Shown one piece after another: positions 14,124 to 59,749 of a stretch of 64,000 bases of DNA (positions are counted from its first letter, which is position 1; every line of letters starts with the position of its first letter). The notes under the pieces were generated by a model, which worked only from the letters and a program-made list of their open reading frames with translations, did not search any database and was not told the DNA's origin. Source of the stretch: Octopus vulgaris (Eukaryota); NCBI GenBank assembly GCA_951406725.2, contig OX597825.1:31744001-31808000 (forward strand), read 5' to 3'. Both the position numbers and the translations under genes were made by a program.

Positions 14124-14384
14124 CTTCTTTTCTTTCTATTTATTTTTTTACTAACAAATCAGAGTTAATGAATAACAACTACCAAAATAACTTATGGCCT
14201 AAGATCATCCTCATCTTCAGCATCATGATTTTCAATATCATCATCATCATCATAATCATAAGCATCATCATTATTATTATTGTTCTATGTTTGACTTTTG
14301 CTTTAACATTTGCACAAGTTGGCTCCAAGTCTCACCCAGAGACCTCAAGAGACAAGTTCGAAGTTCATGTTGGTGTTGTTGTTA

Positions 14385-14865
14385 TTATTATTCTGTCAAG
14401 ATTACATATTTCAGTAATTGACCAGTTAACGACATTGAAACTGTGAGTCACGACTGGTATGGCTAGAGCGTTGATCGCTTCGATCCTGTTTCTCGCATTC
14501 AGCTCTGTCTTAAGTATTGCTCTTACTCTGCGATAACATTCTCTCCTGATCCTTTCCTTCATCACTGAATGCCTTATTCCGTCCCCTTCAATTACCCCTA
14601 GGTACTTGTAGCTCTCCGCTGGGTCTAACTCTTTTATGAGATTCTGCTGGTCAAGGTAAATGTTAGATGTTTCTGTCATTTTTCCTTTGATAAAGGTAGC
14701 TTTTGCACATTTATCGAGACCAAATTGCATTCTGATGTCATCACTGAGTTGTTTAACAATCGTTAGTAAGCCCTTGAGTTGTTGGTAATTTTTTGCAAAG
14801 AGCTTTAAATCATCCATGTAAATGAGATGATTTATATTTTTATCCAACATTTTATATGCATCATT
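14385..14865 (-). mobile_element. R4/Dong LINE RT fragment
   Basis: INHLIYMDDLKLFA...MQFGLDKCA...YKYLG...ILKTELNARNRIEAINALAIPV; near (ATT)n. Confidence 0.92.
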
Positions 14866-14894
14866 GAGCAATTTCGAGAGAGGTATTAAGGCTA

Positions 14895-14962
<68 letters not shown>

Positions 14963-15201
14963 GAGTTGGCAGAATCACTAGTATATCAGACAATATATTT
15001 CCCAGTATTTCTTCCAGCTCTTTTTCATTCTGAGTTCAAATTCTGCCAAAGATGACTTTGCCTTTCATTCTTTCAGGGTTGATGAAACAAGGACCAGTTC
15101 AGAACTGAGGTTGATGTAATCTCTCCACTCAAAAAACTGCTAGCCTTGACCCAACAGTAGGAAGGATTACTATTACCATTATTATTATTATTATTCAGTA
15201 G

Positions 15202-21385: not shown

Positions 21386-21580
21386 GATATATATATATAT
21401 ATACGTTTAAATATTTGTTGTGCAAGATTTTTTATGTGAAGTCGTGTGTTGAAACAGATATTGTTATATTTCGGAATGGTCATTTTGCCAGTTTAGCCAA
21501 TAAAAACACACGCACTATATATTTGGTGTTACTTTGCTACAGTGTTATTTATTTTTTACATTAATCTTAATCTTATTTCA

Positions 21581-21624
21581 GCCAGAGTTCTTTCGTCACA
21601 CTCCTGTGACCGCATCAGTGGTCC
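21581..21624 (-). ncRNA. Minimal type I hammerhead-like motif in the PLE 3' region (variant core)
   Basis: CCA-CUGAUGCG-GUCAC(AGGAGU)GUGAC-GAAAGAACUC-UGG. Confidence 0.55.
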
Positions 21625-22019
21625 TTTGTTTTCTTCTCACTTATTTGTGTCTCTCCTTACTAACCGTCAGCCATTTTGTATTTCTATTGTATGTCTTCAT
21701 TTGTGCATGCTTATATCTCTATGTGCGTTTATGTTTATTTAGTGTGTGTATGTGGGGGATGCCTGTAATATTTGTATCTTCTGTTTATATATGTTCATGT
21801 AATTTGTAATTTTATATGTTCATGTAATTTGTAATTTTATATGTTCATGTAATTTGTATTTTGTATTTTGTATTTTGTTTTTTGTTTTTGTTTATTCTTA
21901 TTTTGTTCATGTGTTTACATCCACCCATTATTATCATTACATATGCTTGTATGTATGTATGTATGTATGTATGTATGTATAACAACAATACTAGTAATAA
22001 TAATAATAAATTGAATCGA

Positions 22020-22123
<104 letters not shown>

Positions 22124-22197
22124 CACATATATATATATATATATAGTTATTTATTTATTTATCTGTGTATTTATTATGTTTTCAGGATCCTCTATCG

Positions 22198-23256
22198 TCA
22201 TATGTTGTGGTGTGTGTTAGTGCTCCATTCTAGTTTTCTATTCAGGCTAGGTTTATTTTCTATTATGTGTGTAGCTTCTGTAATTTGTCTAATTGTTGCA
22301 TTTGATCTATGTGTGGATAATATTTTAATTTCTATGTTATTGATTGATCCCCCGTGTTCTTGTTCAGCGTGTTGGTACAGAATCGATGAGCTTTTACCTT
22401 CTTTGAGTTGTCTCCAATGCTCATTTACCTGCTCTCCTATGCTTCTTGCCGTTTCCCTTACGTATGTCGTTGTCTTGTTACTGCATCGTCCCTCTATACA
22501 TCTTATACTATAGACTACATTTCTGGCTTTACAGTTTGTTTGTGGGCTAAATCTACATACAGTACAGTACCTATCTGTACAGGGGGTTCTACTAAAAGGA
22601 TAGGTTCTACCAATTATAGATTTGATAGGGTTGCCTGGCTTTTCAACAACCTTAATTCTTAGCTTAAGTTTGTCTAGGGTCCTTCTAAAGCGATACGCCA
22701 GTTCACCTCCAGGGGTGGTGTCAACGAACATGACACTCTGGTATTTATGGCTATCATACCAAGAGTTGGCCTTCCCTATTTTCTTTTTTGTCCTTTCTAT
22801 AGTGTTCCATGACTTGTTCCTATAGAGTGGGCAAATACCATTCTTATCATTACATAATATATTATCAAATTTCTTAATGGTTCCTTTGTATACTCTGATC
22901 CTTTCTTTATGGCTGTAACCTGAGAACTGCATGCGGTGAATGAAATATTGTATGTGTCTCTTTAACTCTGTGGGCTCGCACATGCATGACACATTTCTCA
23001 TTATTCTGACGAGGTCTGCCATCAAAATATTGAATTTGGCATTGTCCGCAATGGCTGAGTTCCAGTGGATCAAGTATTTTGAGGCCATAGGTTTGGCATA
23101 GTATGAATGAAGGATTTGGGTTTTATTATTCACAATTTCTAGCCAGAGTTCAGTGTCTAGTACTGGTAGTCTATGGTTGGGGTGTTTAGTGGGGTAGTCT
23201 ATTGTGACCTTAATACTCTGGTGGATGGAGTTAGCTATTTGCTGGATGCTCTCCAT
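22198..23256 (-). pseudogene. PLE RT thumb + Cys-rich linker + GIY-YIG endonuclease
   Basis: LPVLDTELW, YYAKPMAS, CTDRYCTVC...C, NVVYSIRC...YVRET...EH...HAEQEH; out of frame with the RT ORF by one nucleotide. Confidence 0.92.
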
Positions 23257-23273
23257 AGTATTAGTTTCTATTA

Positions 23274-25256
23274 CTATATCAACATTACTCTCTTGTGGGG
23301 TGCCTTTACCACTATGTTGATATCATCAACATAGCGAGAGTACATGTTTACGAGTATGGAATTCTGTGTTAGGCGTTCTTTAAGCCTTCTGTCCCACCAT
23401 ACCATGAAAAGGTTGGCCACATCACCAGCAATACTAACGCCGATGGCTGCCCCCTCGTCCTGGGCATATATTTTATTATTAAACTTAAACGTGTGGCCTT
23501 TTAGGGTAATTCTTATACTAGCTCCTAGTGCATGTGCGATCATTTTCTTTATCAGATGGACATTTGCGGGGCTCCGTATGGCTCTGGTCCATCCACGCCA
23601 TCTTTCTATATGTGTCTTCCTAGCCATAGAAGTAATTGTGGGCGGTCTACCTCTTAAACATCTACTGGGGCAGAAACTACTAAGATTATGTTTATCTAAG
23701 TATTCAGTATTACATGTCAGTCTAAGTAGGGGGCCCAGTTCTTCTGTGTTGACATTACAGAACTCCACCTGGCTCTCATTGATCATCTCCACGCACTTCT
23801 CCACCGCAAAATCTACGTCGATCGATGGGTATAGGGATACCACATCCATGCTACCCACCATACATCCTGTCAGGTCACAAGTGCTGTTACAGTCATCGAT
23901 CCTGCTGAGGAGATCTTCTGTGCTGTCACAAACATCAGGTGACATCTGGATTATAGGGCGTATGATCATTGAGAGGAAGTAGGAGATTCTGTAATTGCTA
24001 GCGATATTCGCTCCACAGACTGGTCTTGTTATTGGTCCTGCTATAGGGTCAGTAATTATTTTATGGTCCTTGCGAAGTCCATACAGTGCCGGGATATCAT
24101 TGTTCCAGGCTTGGAAATTATTTCCTGTATGTTTCTGGGGTCCCAGAACAATAGTCCACATCATCATGTGGGCATTGAGGACCTTTTCTCTCTCCTCATG
24201 TGCCTGTACAGTTGTTATCTTTGTATTGGCGATATGAGGTTGTATTGCCTGGATGTAGTTCGGTAAGCTGTCTATTGACATCCTGCCAGACTTATCTGTG
24301 GGAAGGCATACCACCTCTCCGTTCCTCGTGCGCTGAATGGGCTTATGTAGGCCACATGCAGGTTTAATCCCGAGTTGTTGTGCCTCTGTCTTATTCTGTC
24401 TCTGTCTCTTAGTGTATAATCCTAAAATCTGTCTAAGTTTGGTCCTAGCTATAGTGAACTGTGCTTCCATGTGGTCATTATTATCTCTAGGGATGTAGAC
24501 TCTTTTGTTGAAGGGTAATGTTGTTGGATAAATCCGGTTCATGCAGTAAGTTTTGTCACATACGTTGAAGAATTGAGTGTCAAAGGGGTGGGTATACATG
24601 TCAATGGTCATTCTAGGGTTATCTTCATTATCGTTACTGTTTCCATCATCAGCCTGCCTATTATTATTACCACCATTACCACTACTACTATTATTACTAT
24701 TACCACCACAACTACCATCATTACTACTTCTACTATTACCACCACCACTACTACTACCACTATTATTGTTATTACCATTATTCCTACCATTGCCATTATT
24801 ACTATCATCGCTAGTGATATTTTCATTGTTCCTGTTTCTGGTGTATGTGTTGTTCATATTAGTGTTGGGTTTTATGTCTGTCTGTTGGTTCCTGTCATTC
24901 CCTCTATTGTGGTTGTTATTTTTGTTCCTACGAGTATTGTTATTATTATCTGTTTCAAGTCTACTGACTCCCTGTCCAAGGATCCTGTTGCATTCAACTA
25001 TATTTTCCATCGTGACCCCCATGACACAACTTTTATTTGTGTCTTTGTGACTATGGTTATCTGTGTGTGTGTTTGTGTGTCGGTTCTCCCTATAATTGTT
25101 GTTGTTGTTGCTGTTGTATATGATTTTTTTCTCTCTGTTTATGTTTTTGTATTTGTATCTATTGTTTGTGTCTATGCATTCATTTTTTCTTTTGTTGTTG
25201 TTGTTGCCGCTGTTAGGGTTCGTGTTGTTTTTGTTGCTACGGTTGTTATTGTTATT
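23274..25256 (-). pseudogene. PLE reverse transcriptase with Asn-rich N-terminal region
   Basis: PTDKSG, PALYGLRKDHK, RPV, GSMDVVSLYPSID, QDEGAAIG, YSRYVDD. Confidence 0.95.
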
Positions 25257-25634
25257 AAAGCCAGAAATGTAGTCTATAGTATAAGATGTATAGAGGGACG
25301 ATGCAGTAACAAGACAACGACATACGTAGGGGAAACGGCAAGAAGCATAGGAGAGCGGGTAAATGAGCATTGGAGACAACTCAAAGAAGGTAAAAGCTCA
25401 TCGATTCTGTACCAACACGCTGAACAAGAACACGGGGGATCAATCAATAACATAGAAATTAAAATATTATCCACACATAGATCAGATGCAACAATTAGAC
25501 AAATTACAGAAGCTACACACATAATAGAAAATAAACCTAGCCTGAATAGAAAACTACAATGGAGCACTAACACACACCACATATGACGATAGAGGATCCT
25601 GAAAACATAATAAATACACAGATAAATAAATAAA

Positions 25635-25673
<39 letters not shown>

Positions 25674-26264
25674 ATATGTATATGTATATATATGTATATA
25701 TATATATATATATTTTTTTTTTCGATTCAATTTATTATTATTATTACTAGTATTGTTGTTATACATACATACATACATACATACATACATACATACATAC
25801 ATACAAGCATATGTAATGATAATAATGGGTGGATGTAAACACATGAACAAAATAAGAATAAACAAAAACAAAAAACAAAATACAAAATACAAAATACAAA
25901 TTACATGAACATATAAAATTACAAATTACATGAACATATATAAACAGAAGATACAAATATTACAGGCATCCCCCACATACACACACTAAATAAACATAAA
26001 CGCACATAGCGATATAAGCATGTGCAAATGAAGACATACAATAGAAATACAAAATGGCTGATGGTTAGTAAGGAGAGACACAAATAAGTGAGAAGAAAAC
26101 AAAGGACCACTGATGCGGTCACAGGAGTGTGACGAAAGAACTCTGGCCGAAATAAGATTAAGATTAATGTAAAAAATAAATAACACTGAAGCAAAGTAAC
26201 ACCAAATATATAGTGCGTGTGTTTTTATTGGCTAAACTGGCAAAATGACCATTCCGAAATATAA

Positions 26265-26270
<6 letters not shown>
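25257..26270 (+). repeat. Inverted pseudo-LTR (copy of endonuclease end + 3' UTR)
   Basis: Near-perfect reverse complement of 21458-22530, with scattered substitutions and microsatellite length differences. Confidence 0.97.
26104..26148 (+). ncRNA. Hammerhead-like motif, second copy in the inverted pseudo-LTR
   Basis: GGACCA-CUGAUGCG-GUCAC/GUGAC-GAAAGAACUC-UGGCC. Confidence 0.55.
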
Positions 26271-51219: not shown

Positions 51220-51438
51220 CTGTAAACATTATTATTATAATTAAAATAAAAATCCTCTCAAACAAAAACCATTTCTACTCATTGTTTCAGATATATATAT
51301 ATATATAATATAATAATAAGAGTAAATAATTTCTATAATGGTTTTTAAAAAAACCAACAATTATTTACTGGTAGAATTTGGTATGTAAGTATAGCCGATT
51401 AACGGTAGAAACTTCTGTAAAGTTCAGTATATATATTG

Positions 51439-51631
51439 TATATAAATAAATGGGGCAGGCAACAGGTTGCATGGCCGCATACCGAAAAATTAGAAATAGC
51501 AGTCAAGACTGTTTATTTCTATTATCTACAAGTGGGGCTTGTAGATAATAGAAATAAACAGTCTTGACTGCTATTTCTAATTTTTCGGTATGCGGCCAAG
51601 CAACCTGTTGCCTGCCCCATTTATTTATATA
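51439..51631. repeat. Near-perfect hairpin, ~94-bp arms, 5-nt loop
   Basis: Arms 51439-51532 / 51538-51631, one mismatch seen. Confidence 0.97.
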
Positions 51632-51655
51632 TAAAATATATATATATATATATAC

Positions 51656-51914
51656 AATATTAATTAGAGACAAAACCACTATTATGCAAATCAAACAAAG
51701 AAACACTTAATCCAATACATAAAAATTTTTATATAACTTAAATAAAATTGAATAGAAGATCTGAAAACCACCTGATGAATGTCCTTAGAAGAGACACGAA
51801 ACAATTGTAGTGGCTAATTTAATTTTATTTAATTTATATAAAAATTTTTATATATTGGATTAAGTCTTTCTTTGTTTGATTTGCATAATAGTGGTTTTGT
51901 CTCTAATTAATATT
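51656..51914. repeat. Inverted repeat (~100-bp arms) with a hammerhead ribozyme in the 58-nt spacer
   Basis: Arms 51656-51755 / 51814-51914. Confidence 0.95.
51768..51813 (+). ncRNA. Minimal type I hammerhead ribozyme with palindromic helix III
   Basis: CCAC-CUGAUGA-aUGUC(9 nt)GACAc-GAAAC-AAUU-GUA-GUGG. Confidence 0.85.
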
Positions 51915-51993
51915 ATATAATATTTTACTATAAAATTGGATTCAATCCTAAATCTAATTTTTCCCTGTAAATTTGGATATATTCCCTAATATT

Positions 51994-52031
<38 letters not shown>

Positions 52032-52989: not shown

Positions 52990-53319
52990 TTCGTTTTGGG
53001 ATTTGGTTTGCAAGATTCTTTATATGAGTTTGTGTGTTGAAGCATATTCTGTTGTGTCTGGGGAGAGTCATTCTCTTTTAGTGCCTTATTATTTAACACA
53101 CTCACAGGTAAAATTTCCACTTATTTCTTATTTTTTTTTTTCTAAAATTTTCGTTGCATCTTGCAACCTTTTCGACTATTGAAAAGGTTGCAAAATGCAA
53201 CGAAAATTTTAGAAAATAAAAAATAAGAAATAAGTGGAAATTTTACCAATGAAAATTTTAGAAAATGTGTTAAATAATAAGGCACTAAAAGAGAATGATT
53301 CTCCCCAGACACAACAGAA
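52990..53319 (-). mobile_element. Miniature PLE-derived fold-back insertion with 12-bp TSD
   Basis: TSD taatcatcattt (52978-52989 / 53320-53331); arms 53046-53173 / 53181-53320; unduplicated tail homologous to the big PLE tail at 21404-21465. Confidence 0.85.
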
Positions 53320-59473: not shown

Positions 59474-59507
<34 letters not shown>

Positions 59508-59516
<9 letters not shown>

Positions 59517-59644
59517 GGATTAATCAACAAGCTGCTTAACTACATACCGAAAATTTAAAATAGCAGCCAAAGACAGCTTATTGGCTGCTATTTCTAAATT
59601 TTCGGTATGTGATTAAGCAACTTGTTGATTAACCCTTAATTATA
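59508..59644. repeat. Imperfect hairpin (~63-bp arms, 10-nt loop) homologous to 51439-51631
   Basis: cataccgaaaatttaaaatagcagccaa vs cataccgaaaaattagaaatagcagtcaa. Confidence 0.85.
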
Positions 59645-59749
59645 TTTATATATAAAAAGACTTTTTGTAAAAGTTCCTACTGATAATGGTTCTCTTTACA
59701 TAAAGTACTTGGTAAAAATTTATTAATATTAAATTTATAATTATTTACC

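What the first reader, a model, noticed from the sequence alone, without database searches (positions are those of the whole stretch)
51656..51995. Canonical minimal hammerhead displayed in the loop of a 100-bp stem
Seen: CCAC/GUGG helix I, CUGAUGA, helix II with an A-C mismatch at the 10.1-11.1 position, GAAAC, palindromic ACAAUUGU helix III, GUA site at 51809; the right arm starts immediately after helix I and an ~80-nt tail follows, then (TA)n. Established: palindromic helix III allows dimeric cleavage in PLE-associated hammerheads. Best-formed ribozyme candidate in the window.
Basis: partly seen in the sequence, partly recalled or inferred. Interest (0 to 1): 0.7.

Follow-up and report, generated by a model that had tools for sequence, protein, structure and literature searches.

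The report
Spliced Penelope retrotransposon stub with hammerhead
This hairpin with a hammerhead-ribozyme motif is one of thousands of short, gene-less copies of a Penelope-type jumping gene, likely made when the front end of the element's spliced message was copied twice, back to back, into one DNA cut, which would help explain how these elements copy themselves and why protein-coding copies keep their intron.

Summary
The hammerhead and the ~100-bp stem are real, but the reading changes. The element is a dead copy of the 5' UTR (pLTR) of a Penelope-like retrotransposon with Hydra-clade motifs; its ribozyme motif has 3,044 exact matches in the genome. A51779 is not damage: G stands there in 5 of 3,044 copies, never opposite C. 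The stem is an insertion scar: a second, inverted copy of the same UTR. The window copy carries an exact exon-exon junction where parents have a ~1.1-kb GT-AG intron. Such spliced copies are 58 of 101 sampled hammerheads, 0 of 23 that lead into the ORF, and stop at a sharp 5' limit (57 insertions). In two-armed insertions exactly one arm has the ~80-nt tail (36 of 38; 25 of 26). Best model: capped, spliced sense mRNA is reverse-transcribed from two internal start sites into a (TA)n cut. Ribozyme, inverted pLTR and tail are published; spliced short copies as the main class I did not find in print, but this scan noted the same in another genome (e1-9506236). Cleavage and transcription are untested.

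The parts
51636..51654 (.). Left (TA)n target tract, shared with the end of a neighbouring unrelated palindromic repeat; no target-site duplication can be read
51651..51749 (-). Inverted second copy of the pLTR, starting at the 'no-tail' end and broken off before the hammerhead; left arm of the stem
   Evidence: same start point in other two-armed copies
51743..51749 (.). 7-nt microhomology (TAAAATT) shared by the inverted arm and exon 1: junction of the two arms
   Evidence: sequence printed, compared with full two-armed copy L008
51743..51758 (+). 3' part of the 27-nt exon 1 of the parent mRNA (in parents followed by a GT donor)
51758..51759 (+). Exon 1 / exon 2 junction; parents hold a ~1.1-kb GT...AG intron here
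51768..51813 (+). Minimal type I hammerhead; predicted cut after A51809; palindromic helix III 51801-51808; non-canonical A51779.C51797 at 10.1/11.1
51814..51919 (+). Rest of the pLTR (5' UTR) up to the first inferred reverse-transcription start ('no-tail' end); right arm of the stem
51920..51995 (+). ~80-nt tail up to the second inferred start; in full-length parents the ATG follows ~55 nt further on
51989..52030 (.). Right (TA)n target tract

Best explanation
The feature is a gene-less copy of the 5' UTR (pLTR) of a Penelope-like retrotransposon, carrying its hammerhead, an exact splice junction and an inverted partial duplicate, and it was likely made by reverse transcription of the element's spliced, uncut sense mRNA. 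Shown: the parent has exon 1 (27 nt), a ~1.1-kb GT-AG intron, exon 2 with the hammerhead, a tail, then the ATG of an ~830-aa RT/GIY-YIG ORF; short copies hold exon 1 joined to exon 2, stop at base 1 of exon 1, sit in (TA)n, and in two-armed insertions one arm ends with the tail and the other without. Inferred: the protein nicks both strands of (TA)n; each end primes on the same RNA at one of two internal sites ~80 nt apart in the 5' UTR; both cDNAs run toward the cap and are joined by microhomology, giving a head-to-head repeat. Because priming lies upstream of the ATG, the mRNA can yield only such stubs, while ORF-bearing copies come from longer, more-than-unit RNAs in which this intron is usually still present. 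In the window the second cDNA was joined early, so one hammerhead is left inside the stem. The ribozyme is predicted to be weak as a monomer and to work as a dimer or with the protein's help; most templates were uncut, a small share may have been cut.
For: Family: 1,050 candidates, 40 scored, 96-100% identical; motif 3,044 exact matches, control 0. Parent: RT and GIY-YIG ORF contiguous with a pLTR 96% identical to the window (L046, L049); intact 821-839-aa frames in sister subfamilies, ATG 284 nt after the hammerhead core in L126. Splicing: 118 exact spliced-junction matches against 27 for the intron acceptor (patterns not equally wide); 58 spliced, 31 intron-retaining, 12 unclassified of 101 hammerheads in the first 100 Mb of contig C1; each subfamily's stubs carry that subfamily's own exon 1; one subfamily has two donors 4 nt apart and both products occur; a third donor ~195 nt after the stop codon is joined to the same acceptor in 21 matches. 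5' limit: 0 of 57 insertions match beyond base 27 of exon 1, 9 end there. ORF-leading hammerheads: 22 intron-retaining, 1 UTR-spliced, 0 exon-1-spliced of 23, Fisher p = 6e-8 against 58 of 101. Tail rule: 36 of 38 (p = 5e-9) and 25 of 26. One template: 21 pairs classed on both arms were 12 spliced/spliced, 9 unspliced/unspliced, 0 mixed (hand count). In vitro precedent for extension of both strands, two internal starts matching the tail, and uncut RNA as main substrate: PMC11167929.
Against: No RNA evidence: no holder on record as RNA, contigs only, no splice joint seen in the one lay that ran, which used an already spliced copy. The transcription start is inferred from copy ends and an initiator-like sequence, not mapped; two of the nine full-length ends (L079, L090) could be read a few bases longer against another parent variant; an untemplated cap G is inconclusive (3 of 9). 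Fold-back copying of one cDNA followed by endonuclease cutting predicts the same one-tail, one-template pattern. No full-length intact parent of the window's own subfamily was recovered. No RT tree was built. Cleavage was not tested and helix II lacks G10.1-C11.1. The 21 UTR-spliced matches show that longer RNAs can also be spliced before copying.
Confidence: 0.8

Rival explanations
1. Same spliced sense template, but the inverted arm is made by fold-back: one cDNA starts at the tail end, its 3' end hairpins, copies itself, and the endonuclease resolves it at the AT-rich no-tail site.
For: Predicts one tail per insertion and identical splice state in both arms, as seen. Self-priming was proposed in PMC3846280 and EN-mediated resolution of the tail in PMC8557442. 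Junctions often show short palindromes.
Against: 10 of 18 single-armed spliced copies end at the no-tail site with no partner; either arm can be the longer one (21 against 15); purified protein of another PLE starts at both sites and extends both strands (PMC11167929).
Confidence: 0.2
2. A self-standing non-autonomous element (SINE/retrozyme/MITE-like) that arose once from a spliced or deleted copy and spreads as a hairpin RNA presenting the ribozyme.
For: High copy number, near-identical short copies, stable hairpin; animal retrozymes derive from pLTRs (bioRxiv 10.64898/2026.07.22.740005).
Against: Arm length varies continuously (5' ends of 57 second arms spread from -117 to +72 around the cut site); no tandem monomers at the window; stubs lack the upstream promoter region; stubs track each parent subfamily's own exon 1 and alternative donors.
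Confidence: 0.05
3. The intron was lost by DNA deletion or the template was an antisense RNA (model of PMC3846280), not the spliced mRNA.
For: Microhomology deletions are common in PLE copies (PMC3846280); ORF-leading copies do retain the intron (22 of 23), as that model expects.
Against: Three different GT donors are joined to one AG acceptor on the ORF strand at the exact base; the 5' limit coincides with an initiator-like site. An antisense RNA cannot be spliced at these sites. The model could still hold for the long, intron-retaining copies.
Confidence: 0.05
4. The hammerhead of this family is a catalytically dead relic kept only for another role (protein binding, structure).
For: 10.1/11.1 is unpaired in 37 of 101 copies and never G-C; at least 999 of 1,007 arms keep the A at the cut site in a sister subfamily; metazoan PLE hammerheads cleave poorly (PMC4209133).
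Against: N7 and loop II vary while the helix III palindrome is kept through CAAUU / CGAUU / CGAUC (93 of 101 self-complementary); all 8 arms without that A are true 5' ends exactly at the cut site, 7 insertions against 1-3 expected (p 0.0001-0.045 by assumption); a natural U.U at 10.1/11.1 is reported (PMC3088659).
Confidence: 0.3

Closest known systems
Hydra clade of C-terminal EN+ Penelope-like elements (Craig et al. 2021, PMC8557442; section 11 read whole, other passages)
   Same: DKT, (R/K)WK, CxCX5C linker, CxxC and CxH around the C-terminal E/N, GIY-YIG-type motif, hammerhead in the pLTR, (TA)n targets, inverted 5'-truncated copy, tail at one end; clade reported in molluscs.
   Different: Tail ~80 nt rather than 30-40; unit longer than 3 kb because of a long 3' UTR and ~1.1-kb intron; spliced stubs not mentioned in the passages read; membership rests on motifs, no tree.
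Minimal type I hammerheads of metazoan PLEs (Cervera and de la Pena 2014, PMC4209133; parts 1-2 of 4 read)
   Same: 4-bp helix I, palindromic helix III, location in pLTR, mostly dispersed single motifs and close opposite-strand pairs; intron end just 5' of helix I as in Drosophila virilis Penelope.
   Different: That paper stresses a conserved G10.1-C11.1 pair plus an extra base; here an invariant UGUC/GACA stem is flanked by A/U and any base, G-C never seen.
Poseidon element of the green anole, PAc (Frangieh et al. 2024, PMC11167929; parts 1-2 of 4 read)
   Same: Two internal RT starts bounding the tail, both strands extended, AT-rich targets, uncut RNA as template.
   Different: There the starts lie inside the ORF; here they lie upstream of the ATG, and the copies record splicing and a 5' limit.
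Penelope of D. virilis (Schostak et al. 2008, PMC2377424; passages) and Adineta Penelopes (Arkhipova et al. 2013, PMC3846280; passages and Discussion)
   Same: Start site in the pLTR, short first exon, 5' UTR intron, inverted pLTR with tail, solo pLTRs, N-rich stretches in the ORF.
   Different: Known for retaining the intron in genomic copies; here most sampled copies lack it, and only ORF-leading ones keep it as a rule.
Animal non-LTR retrozymes (bioRxiv 10.64898/2026.07.22.740005; part 1 of 5 read)
   Same: Non-coding, type I hammerhead, PLE-derived.
   Different: Defined by tandem monomers each with a ribozyme; this copy is a single head-to-head insertion.

Membership tests
Type I hammerhead ribozyme | Core C3-A9, G12-A15, U16 H17 with three helices | tested here: met
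   3,044 family matches, control 0
Type I hammerhead ribozyme | Paired 10.1-11.1 (canonically G-C) | tested here: not met
   A.C in the window; of 101 copies U-A 46, A-U 16, U-G 2, U.U 16, A.G 8, A.A 7, A.C 6; G at 10.1 in 5 of 3,044. No Rfam match
Type I hammerhead ribozyme | Self-cleavage after H17 | not testable with these tools
   Only indirect: 8 of 1,007 arms of a sister subfamily begin exactly at the cut site
PLE minimal hammerhead | Short helix I and palindromic helix III allowing dimers | tested here: met
   93 of 101 self-complementary with G.U allowed; dimer fold favoured
EN+ Penelope-like element (parent) | Single ORF with RT followed by GIY-YIG endonuclease | tested here: met
   821-839-aa frames with YRDD, PMG and YIGST motifs read by eye and regex; Pfam found no RT or EN family in three fragments
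EN+ Penelope-like element (parent) | pLTR with hammerhead at both ends, inverted truncated copy, one-sided tail | tested here: met
EN+ Penelope-like element (parent) | Spliceosomal intron retained in genomic copies | tested here: inconclusive
   Retained in 22 of 23 ORF-leading pLTRs, absent in 58 of 101 sampled copies and in the window
Hydra clade | DKT, RWK-like, CxCX5C, CxxC/CxH motifs; (TA)n insertion | tested here: met
   DKT at 128, KWK at 43, CxCX5C at 689, CxxC at 795, CxH at 824 of L140 ORF against section 11 of PMC8557442; K instead of R in RWK
Hydra clade | Placement in the RT phylogeny | not tested
   No reference RTs fetched; supplements of PMC8557442 not opened
Non-LTR retrozyme | Tandem monomers each with a hammerhead | tested here: not met
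   One hammerhead in the window, no tandem repeat at the site
MITE / fixed hairpin element | Constant terminal inverted repeats and length | tested here: not met
   Arm absent in 18 of 57, ends spread over ~190 nt

The most novel reading that the evidence does not exclude
Most copies of this Penelope-like family are run-off cDNAs of the spliced mRNA's 5' UTR, both arms written from one sense RNA primed at two internal sites. PLE 'intron retention' is then a result of which RNA can yield an ORF-bearing copy, not of an antisense template; and about 1% of copies start exactly at the hammerhead cut site, a genomic footprint of in vivo cleavage by a hammerhead that never has the G10.1-C11.1 pair.
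Probability: 0.5. Interest if true: 0.7.

Novelty: new variant of a known kind. Interest (0 to 1): 0.5.

Why it matters
The single copy is an inert scar. The family matters as a record: PLEs are the sister group of telomerase RTs and their mechanism is open (template strand, why introns survive, how inverted ends and the tail form, whether the ribozyme cuts in vivo; PMC8557442, PMC3846280, PMC11167929). Here hundreds of young copies carry splice junctions, a sharp 5' limit and a strict one-tail rule, which point to a sense, capped, single RNA template and give base-precise predictions for RACE and in vitro priming. It also warns that such hairpins should not be annotated as MITEs, miRNA precursors or stand-alone ribozyme genes.

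Tried and rejected
Rfam: no match at gathering score, no hammerhead at E<=10. Pfam: no RT/EN hit on three ORF fragments. Sequencing runs: no RNA holder listed; laying four contig runs on an already spliced full-length copy (L126) could not show splicing, starts or strand; laying runs on an intron-bearing copy gave no result, so splicing in RNA stays unshown. 'A51779G repair': rejected. Reading the GT-rich intron as an antisense ORF: rejected, it is low-complexity intron sequence between donor and acceptor. Neptune/Nematis placement (my first guess, recalled): dropped for Hydra after reading. Cap-derived extra G at full-length 5' ends: 3 of 9, confounded by microhomology, inconclusive. Pile-up of second-arm ends at the cut site: 0 of 57 within 1 nt; the genome-wide test found 8 of 1,007 and misses ends preceded by A. 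Covariation in helices I and II could not be measured because my pattern fixed them. Lunse et al. 2017 (RNA Biol) was not held; I know it only through the review PMC6765202, so 10.1/11.1 variants may already be described there. Arkhipova 2003, 2006 and Evgen'ev 2005 were not read. No supplements were opened; those of PMC4209133 and PMC8557442 may hold this family or similar hammerheads. The search of earlier findings by sequence: nothing.

Full report
Observation. The stretch folds far better than shuffles (-131.1 kcal/mol, z -18.7, 0 of 100). It was the only type I hammerhead that my scan found in the window; Rfam does not detect it. The duplicated arm is 51651-51749 against 51821-51919; helix III is not formed in the best monomer fold, while two copies fold into a swapped double hammerhead (-18.4 against -2.0 kcal/mol for a hammerhead-shaped monomer).

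It is a repeat. The right half has 1,050 candidates in the 2.8-Gb own genome, the 40 scored being 96-100% identical. A descriptor of the ribozyme has 3,044 exact matches, control 0. The host is probably an octopus (my inference from genome size and microsatellite load; not established by a tool). Copies sit in (TA)n. Some have no left arm, some a short one, some a full inverted copy with a second hammerhead. The stem is therefore an insertion by-product.

The mismatch is the family state. Among 101 hammerheads from the first 100 Mb of contig C1, positions 10.1/11.1 were U-A 46, A-U 16, U.U 16, A.G 8, A.A 7, A.C 6, U-G 2. G at 10.1 occurs in 5 of 3,044 matches, all opposite U. N7 was A 72, C 17, U 12, loop II varied, and helix III stayed self-complementary in 93 of 101 through the series CAAUU, CGAUU, CGAUC. 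My pattern fixed helices I and II, so their conservation is not tested by this sample. PMC4209133 (parts 1-2 of 4) describes G10.1-C11.1 as highly conserved in PLE hammerheads; PMC3088659 (passages) reports a natural U.U there. So this is a variant, and the proposed repair has no basis.

The parent. Walking upstream from longer copies led to RT and GIY-YIG coding sequence contiguous with a pLTR 96% identical to the window (L046, L049) and to intact 821-839-aa frames in sister subfamilies with pLTRs 83-93% identical. The ATG lies 284 nt after the hammerhead core in L126, about 55 nt after the tail. The L140 protein has KWK, DKT, YRDD, CxCX5C, YIGST, CxxC and CxH, matching the Hydra clade as defined in section 11 of PMC8557442. 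Pfam did not recognise the fragments and no tree was built.

The copy is spliced. Parents carry a 27-nt segment, then GT, about 1.1 kb, then a pyrimidine tract and AG, 9 nt before helix I. The window and most short copies have that segment joined to the base after the AG (51758/51759): 118 exact matches against 27 for the acceptor form, though the first pattern covered two subfamilies and the second one. In the 101-copy sample 58 were exon-1-spliced, 31 intron-retaining, 12 unclassified. Three facts argue for the spliceosome and for repeated origin: each subfamily's stubs carry its own exon 1; one subfamily has two GT donors 4 nt apart and both products occur; and a third donor about 195 nt after the stop codon is joined to the same acceptor in 21 matches. 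In 57 independent spliced insertions (the first 61 loci fetched of 118 matches, 4 dropped as second arms of the same insertion) none matched beyond base 27 and 9 ended there; two of these could be read a few bases longer against another parent variant. I read the limit as the transcription start; this is inferred. Of 23 hammerheads leading into the ORF, 22 keep the intron end, 1 is UTR-spliced, none is exon-1-spliced (Fisher p 6e-8).

The two arms. In spliced two-armed insertions exactly one arm has the tail in 36 of 38 (2 had none, 1 further case was truncated; p 5e-9). Among head-to-head hammerhead pairs of the C1 sample it is 25 of 26 after dropping one apparent segmental duplicate. The 21 pairs classed on both arms were 12 spliced/spliced and 9 unspliced/unspliced, none mixed (hand count), so both arms come from one RNA or one cDNA. 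The window fits: tail on the right, no tail on the left, arms joined at a 7-nt microhomology.

Mechanism. PMC11167929 (parts 1-2 of 4) shows that a purified PLE protein extends both target strands, starts at two internal sites that bound the tail, and uses uncut RNA. Applied here (inference): both nicked ends of (TA)n prime on one spliced mRNA at sites in its 5' UTR, run toward the cap and are joined head to head. The mRNA can then give only stubs, and ORF-bearing copies need longer RNAs, which explains why they keep the intron. Fold-back of one cDNA with endonuclease resolution remains a fair rival for the second arm. The antisense-template model of PMC3846280 (Discussion read) cannot give spliced arms, though it is not excluded for long copies.

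Does the ribozyme cut? Most templates were whole: in a sister subfamily 999 arms have A at the cut position and 8 do not. All 8 are true 5' ends exactly at the cut site rather than point mutants, in one insertion on both arms; 7 insertions against 1.1-3.2 expected gives p 0.0001-0.045 depending on assumptions. Against this, 0 of 57 second arms ended within 1 nt of the site, and neighbouring positions were not counted genome-wide. This is a hint only. No RNA holder was listed and contigs could not show splicing or starts.

What is known. Hammerheads in pLTRs, dimers, inverted pLTRs, a one-sided tail, 5' UTR introns and solo pLTRs are in print (PMC4209133, PMC8557442, PMC2377424, PMC3846280). 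I did not find spliced short copies as a main class in searches (listings, and passages of the papers named), but the older Arkhipova papers and Lunse 2017 were not available or not read, and no supplements were seen. PMC13282606 (passages) lists recently active Penelope families in an octopus and has no mention of hammerheads. This scan reached the same spliced fold-back reading in another genome (e1-9506236), after I had written mine; it is an AI note, not support.

Verdict. Observation confirmed, interpretation partly supported. An inert copy of a known class, whose family gives unusually sharp, testable evidence on PLE mechanism. Interest 0.5; new variant of a known kind.

Noticed in passing
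window 51385-51642: Adjacent near-perfect palindrome (105-bp arms) of another high-copy repeat (1,587 candidates); relatives are two-armed with an extension on one side and longer ones hold a CUGAUGA-like motif on the minus strand (L301, L302): probably a second PLE family's stub, sharing the (TA)n tract with this one.
   Followed up: partly
window 21458-26270: Another PLE-like element with inverted ends (425-nt and 326-nt arms) and minus-strand frames of 707 aa (RT with YVDD) and 374 aa (GIY-YIG-like end); my descriptor found no hammerhead in it.
   Followed up: no
window 53107-53247 and 59480-59702: Further hairpins (53-bp and 38-bp arms); the second is 72-80% similar to the 51428-51642 palindrome.
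   Followed up: no
L124, L126, L142-L162: Copies in which a donor ~195 nt after the stop codon is joined to the hammerhead exon, removing the promoter region; L126 has this form at both ends of a full-length ORF. Some have much longer helix II loops.
   Followed up: partly
L125, L140 ORFs: Long asparagine-rich stretch between RT and the linker, varying in length between copies, like the N-rich inserts of Adineta Penelopes (PMC3846280).
   Followed up: no
L187, L196: Hammerhead exon preceded by foreign, non-repeat sequence close to the acceptor position; could be host exons spliced onto it, as note e1-8670049 proposes.
   Followed up: no
L312/L313 (G000:C6:116842837-116842906): Two-armed insertion in which both arms begin exactly at the hammerhead cut site, 6 nt apart: what a cleaved template would leave.
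   Followed up: partly
window 14365-14985: Minus-strand fragment of a non-LTR RT (YMDD motif), 206 aa.
   Followed up: no
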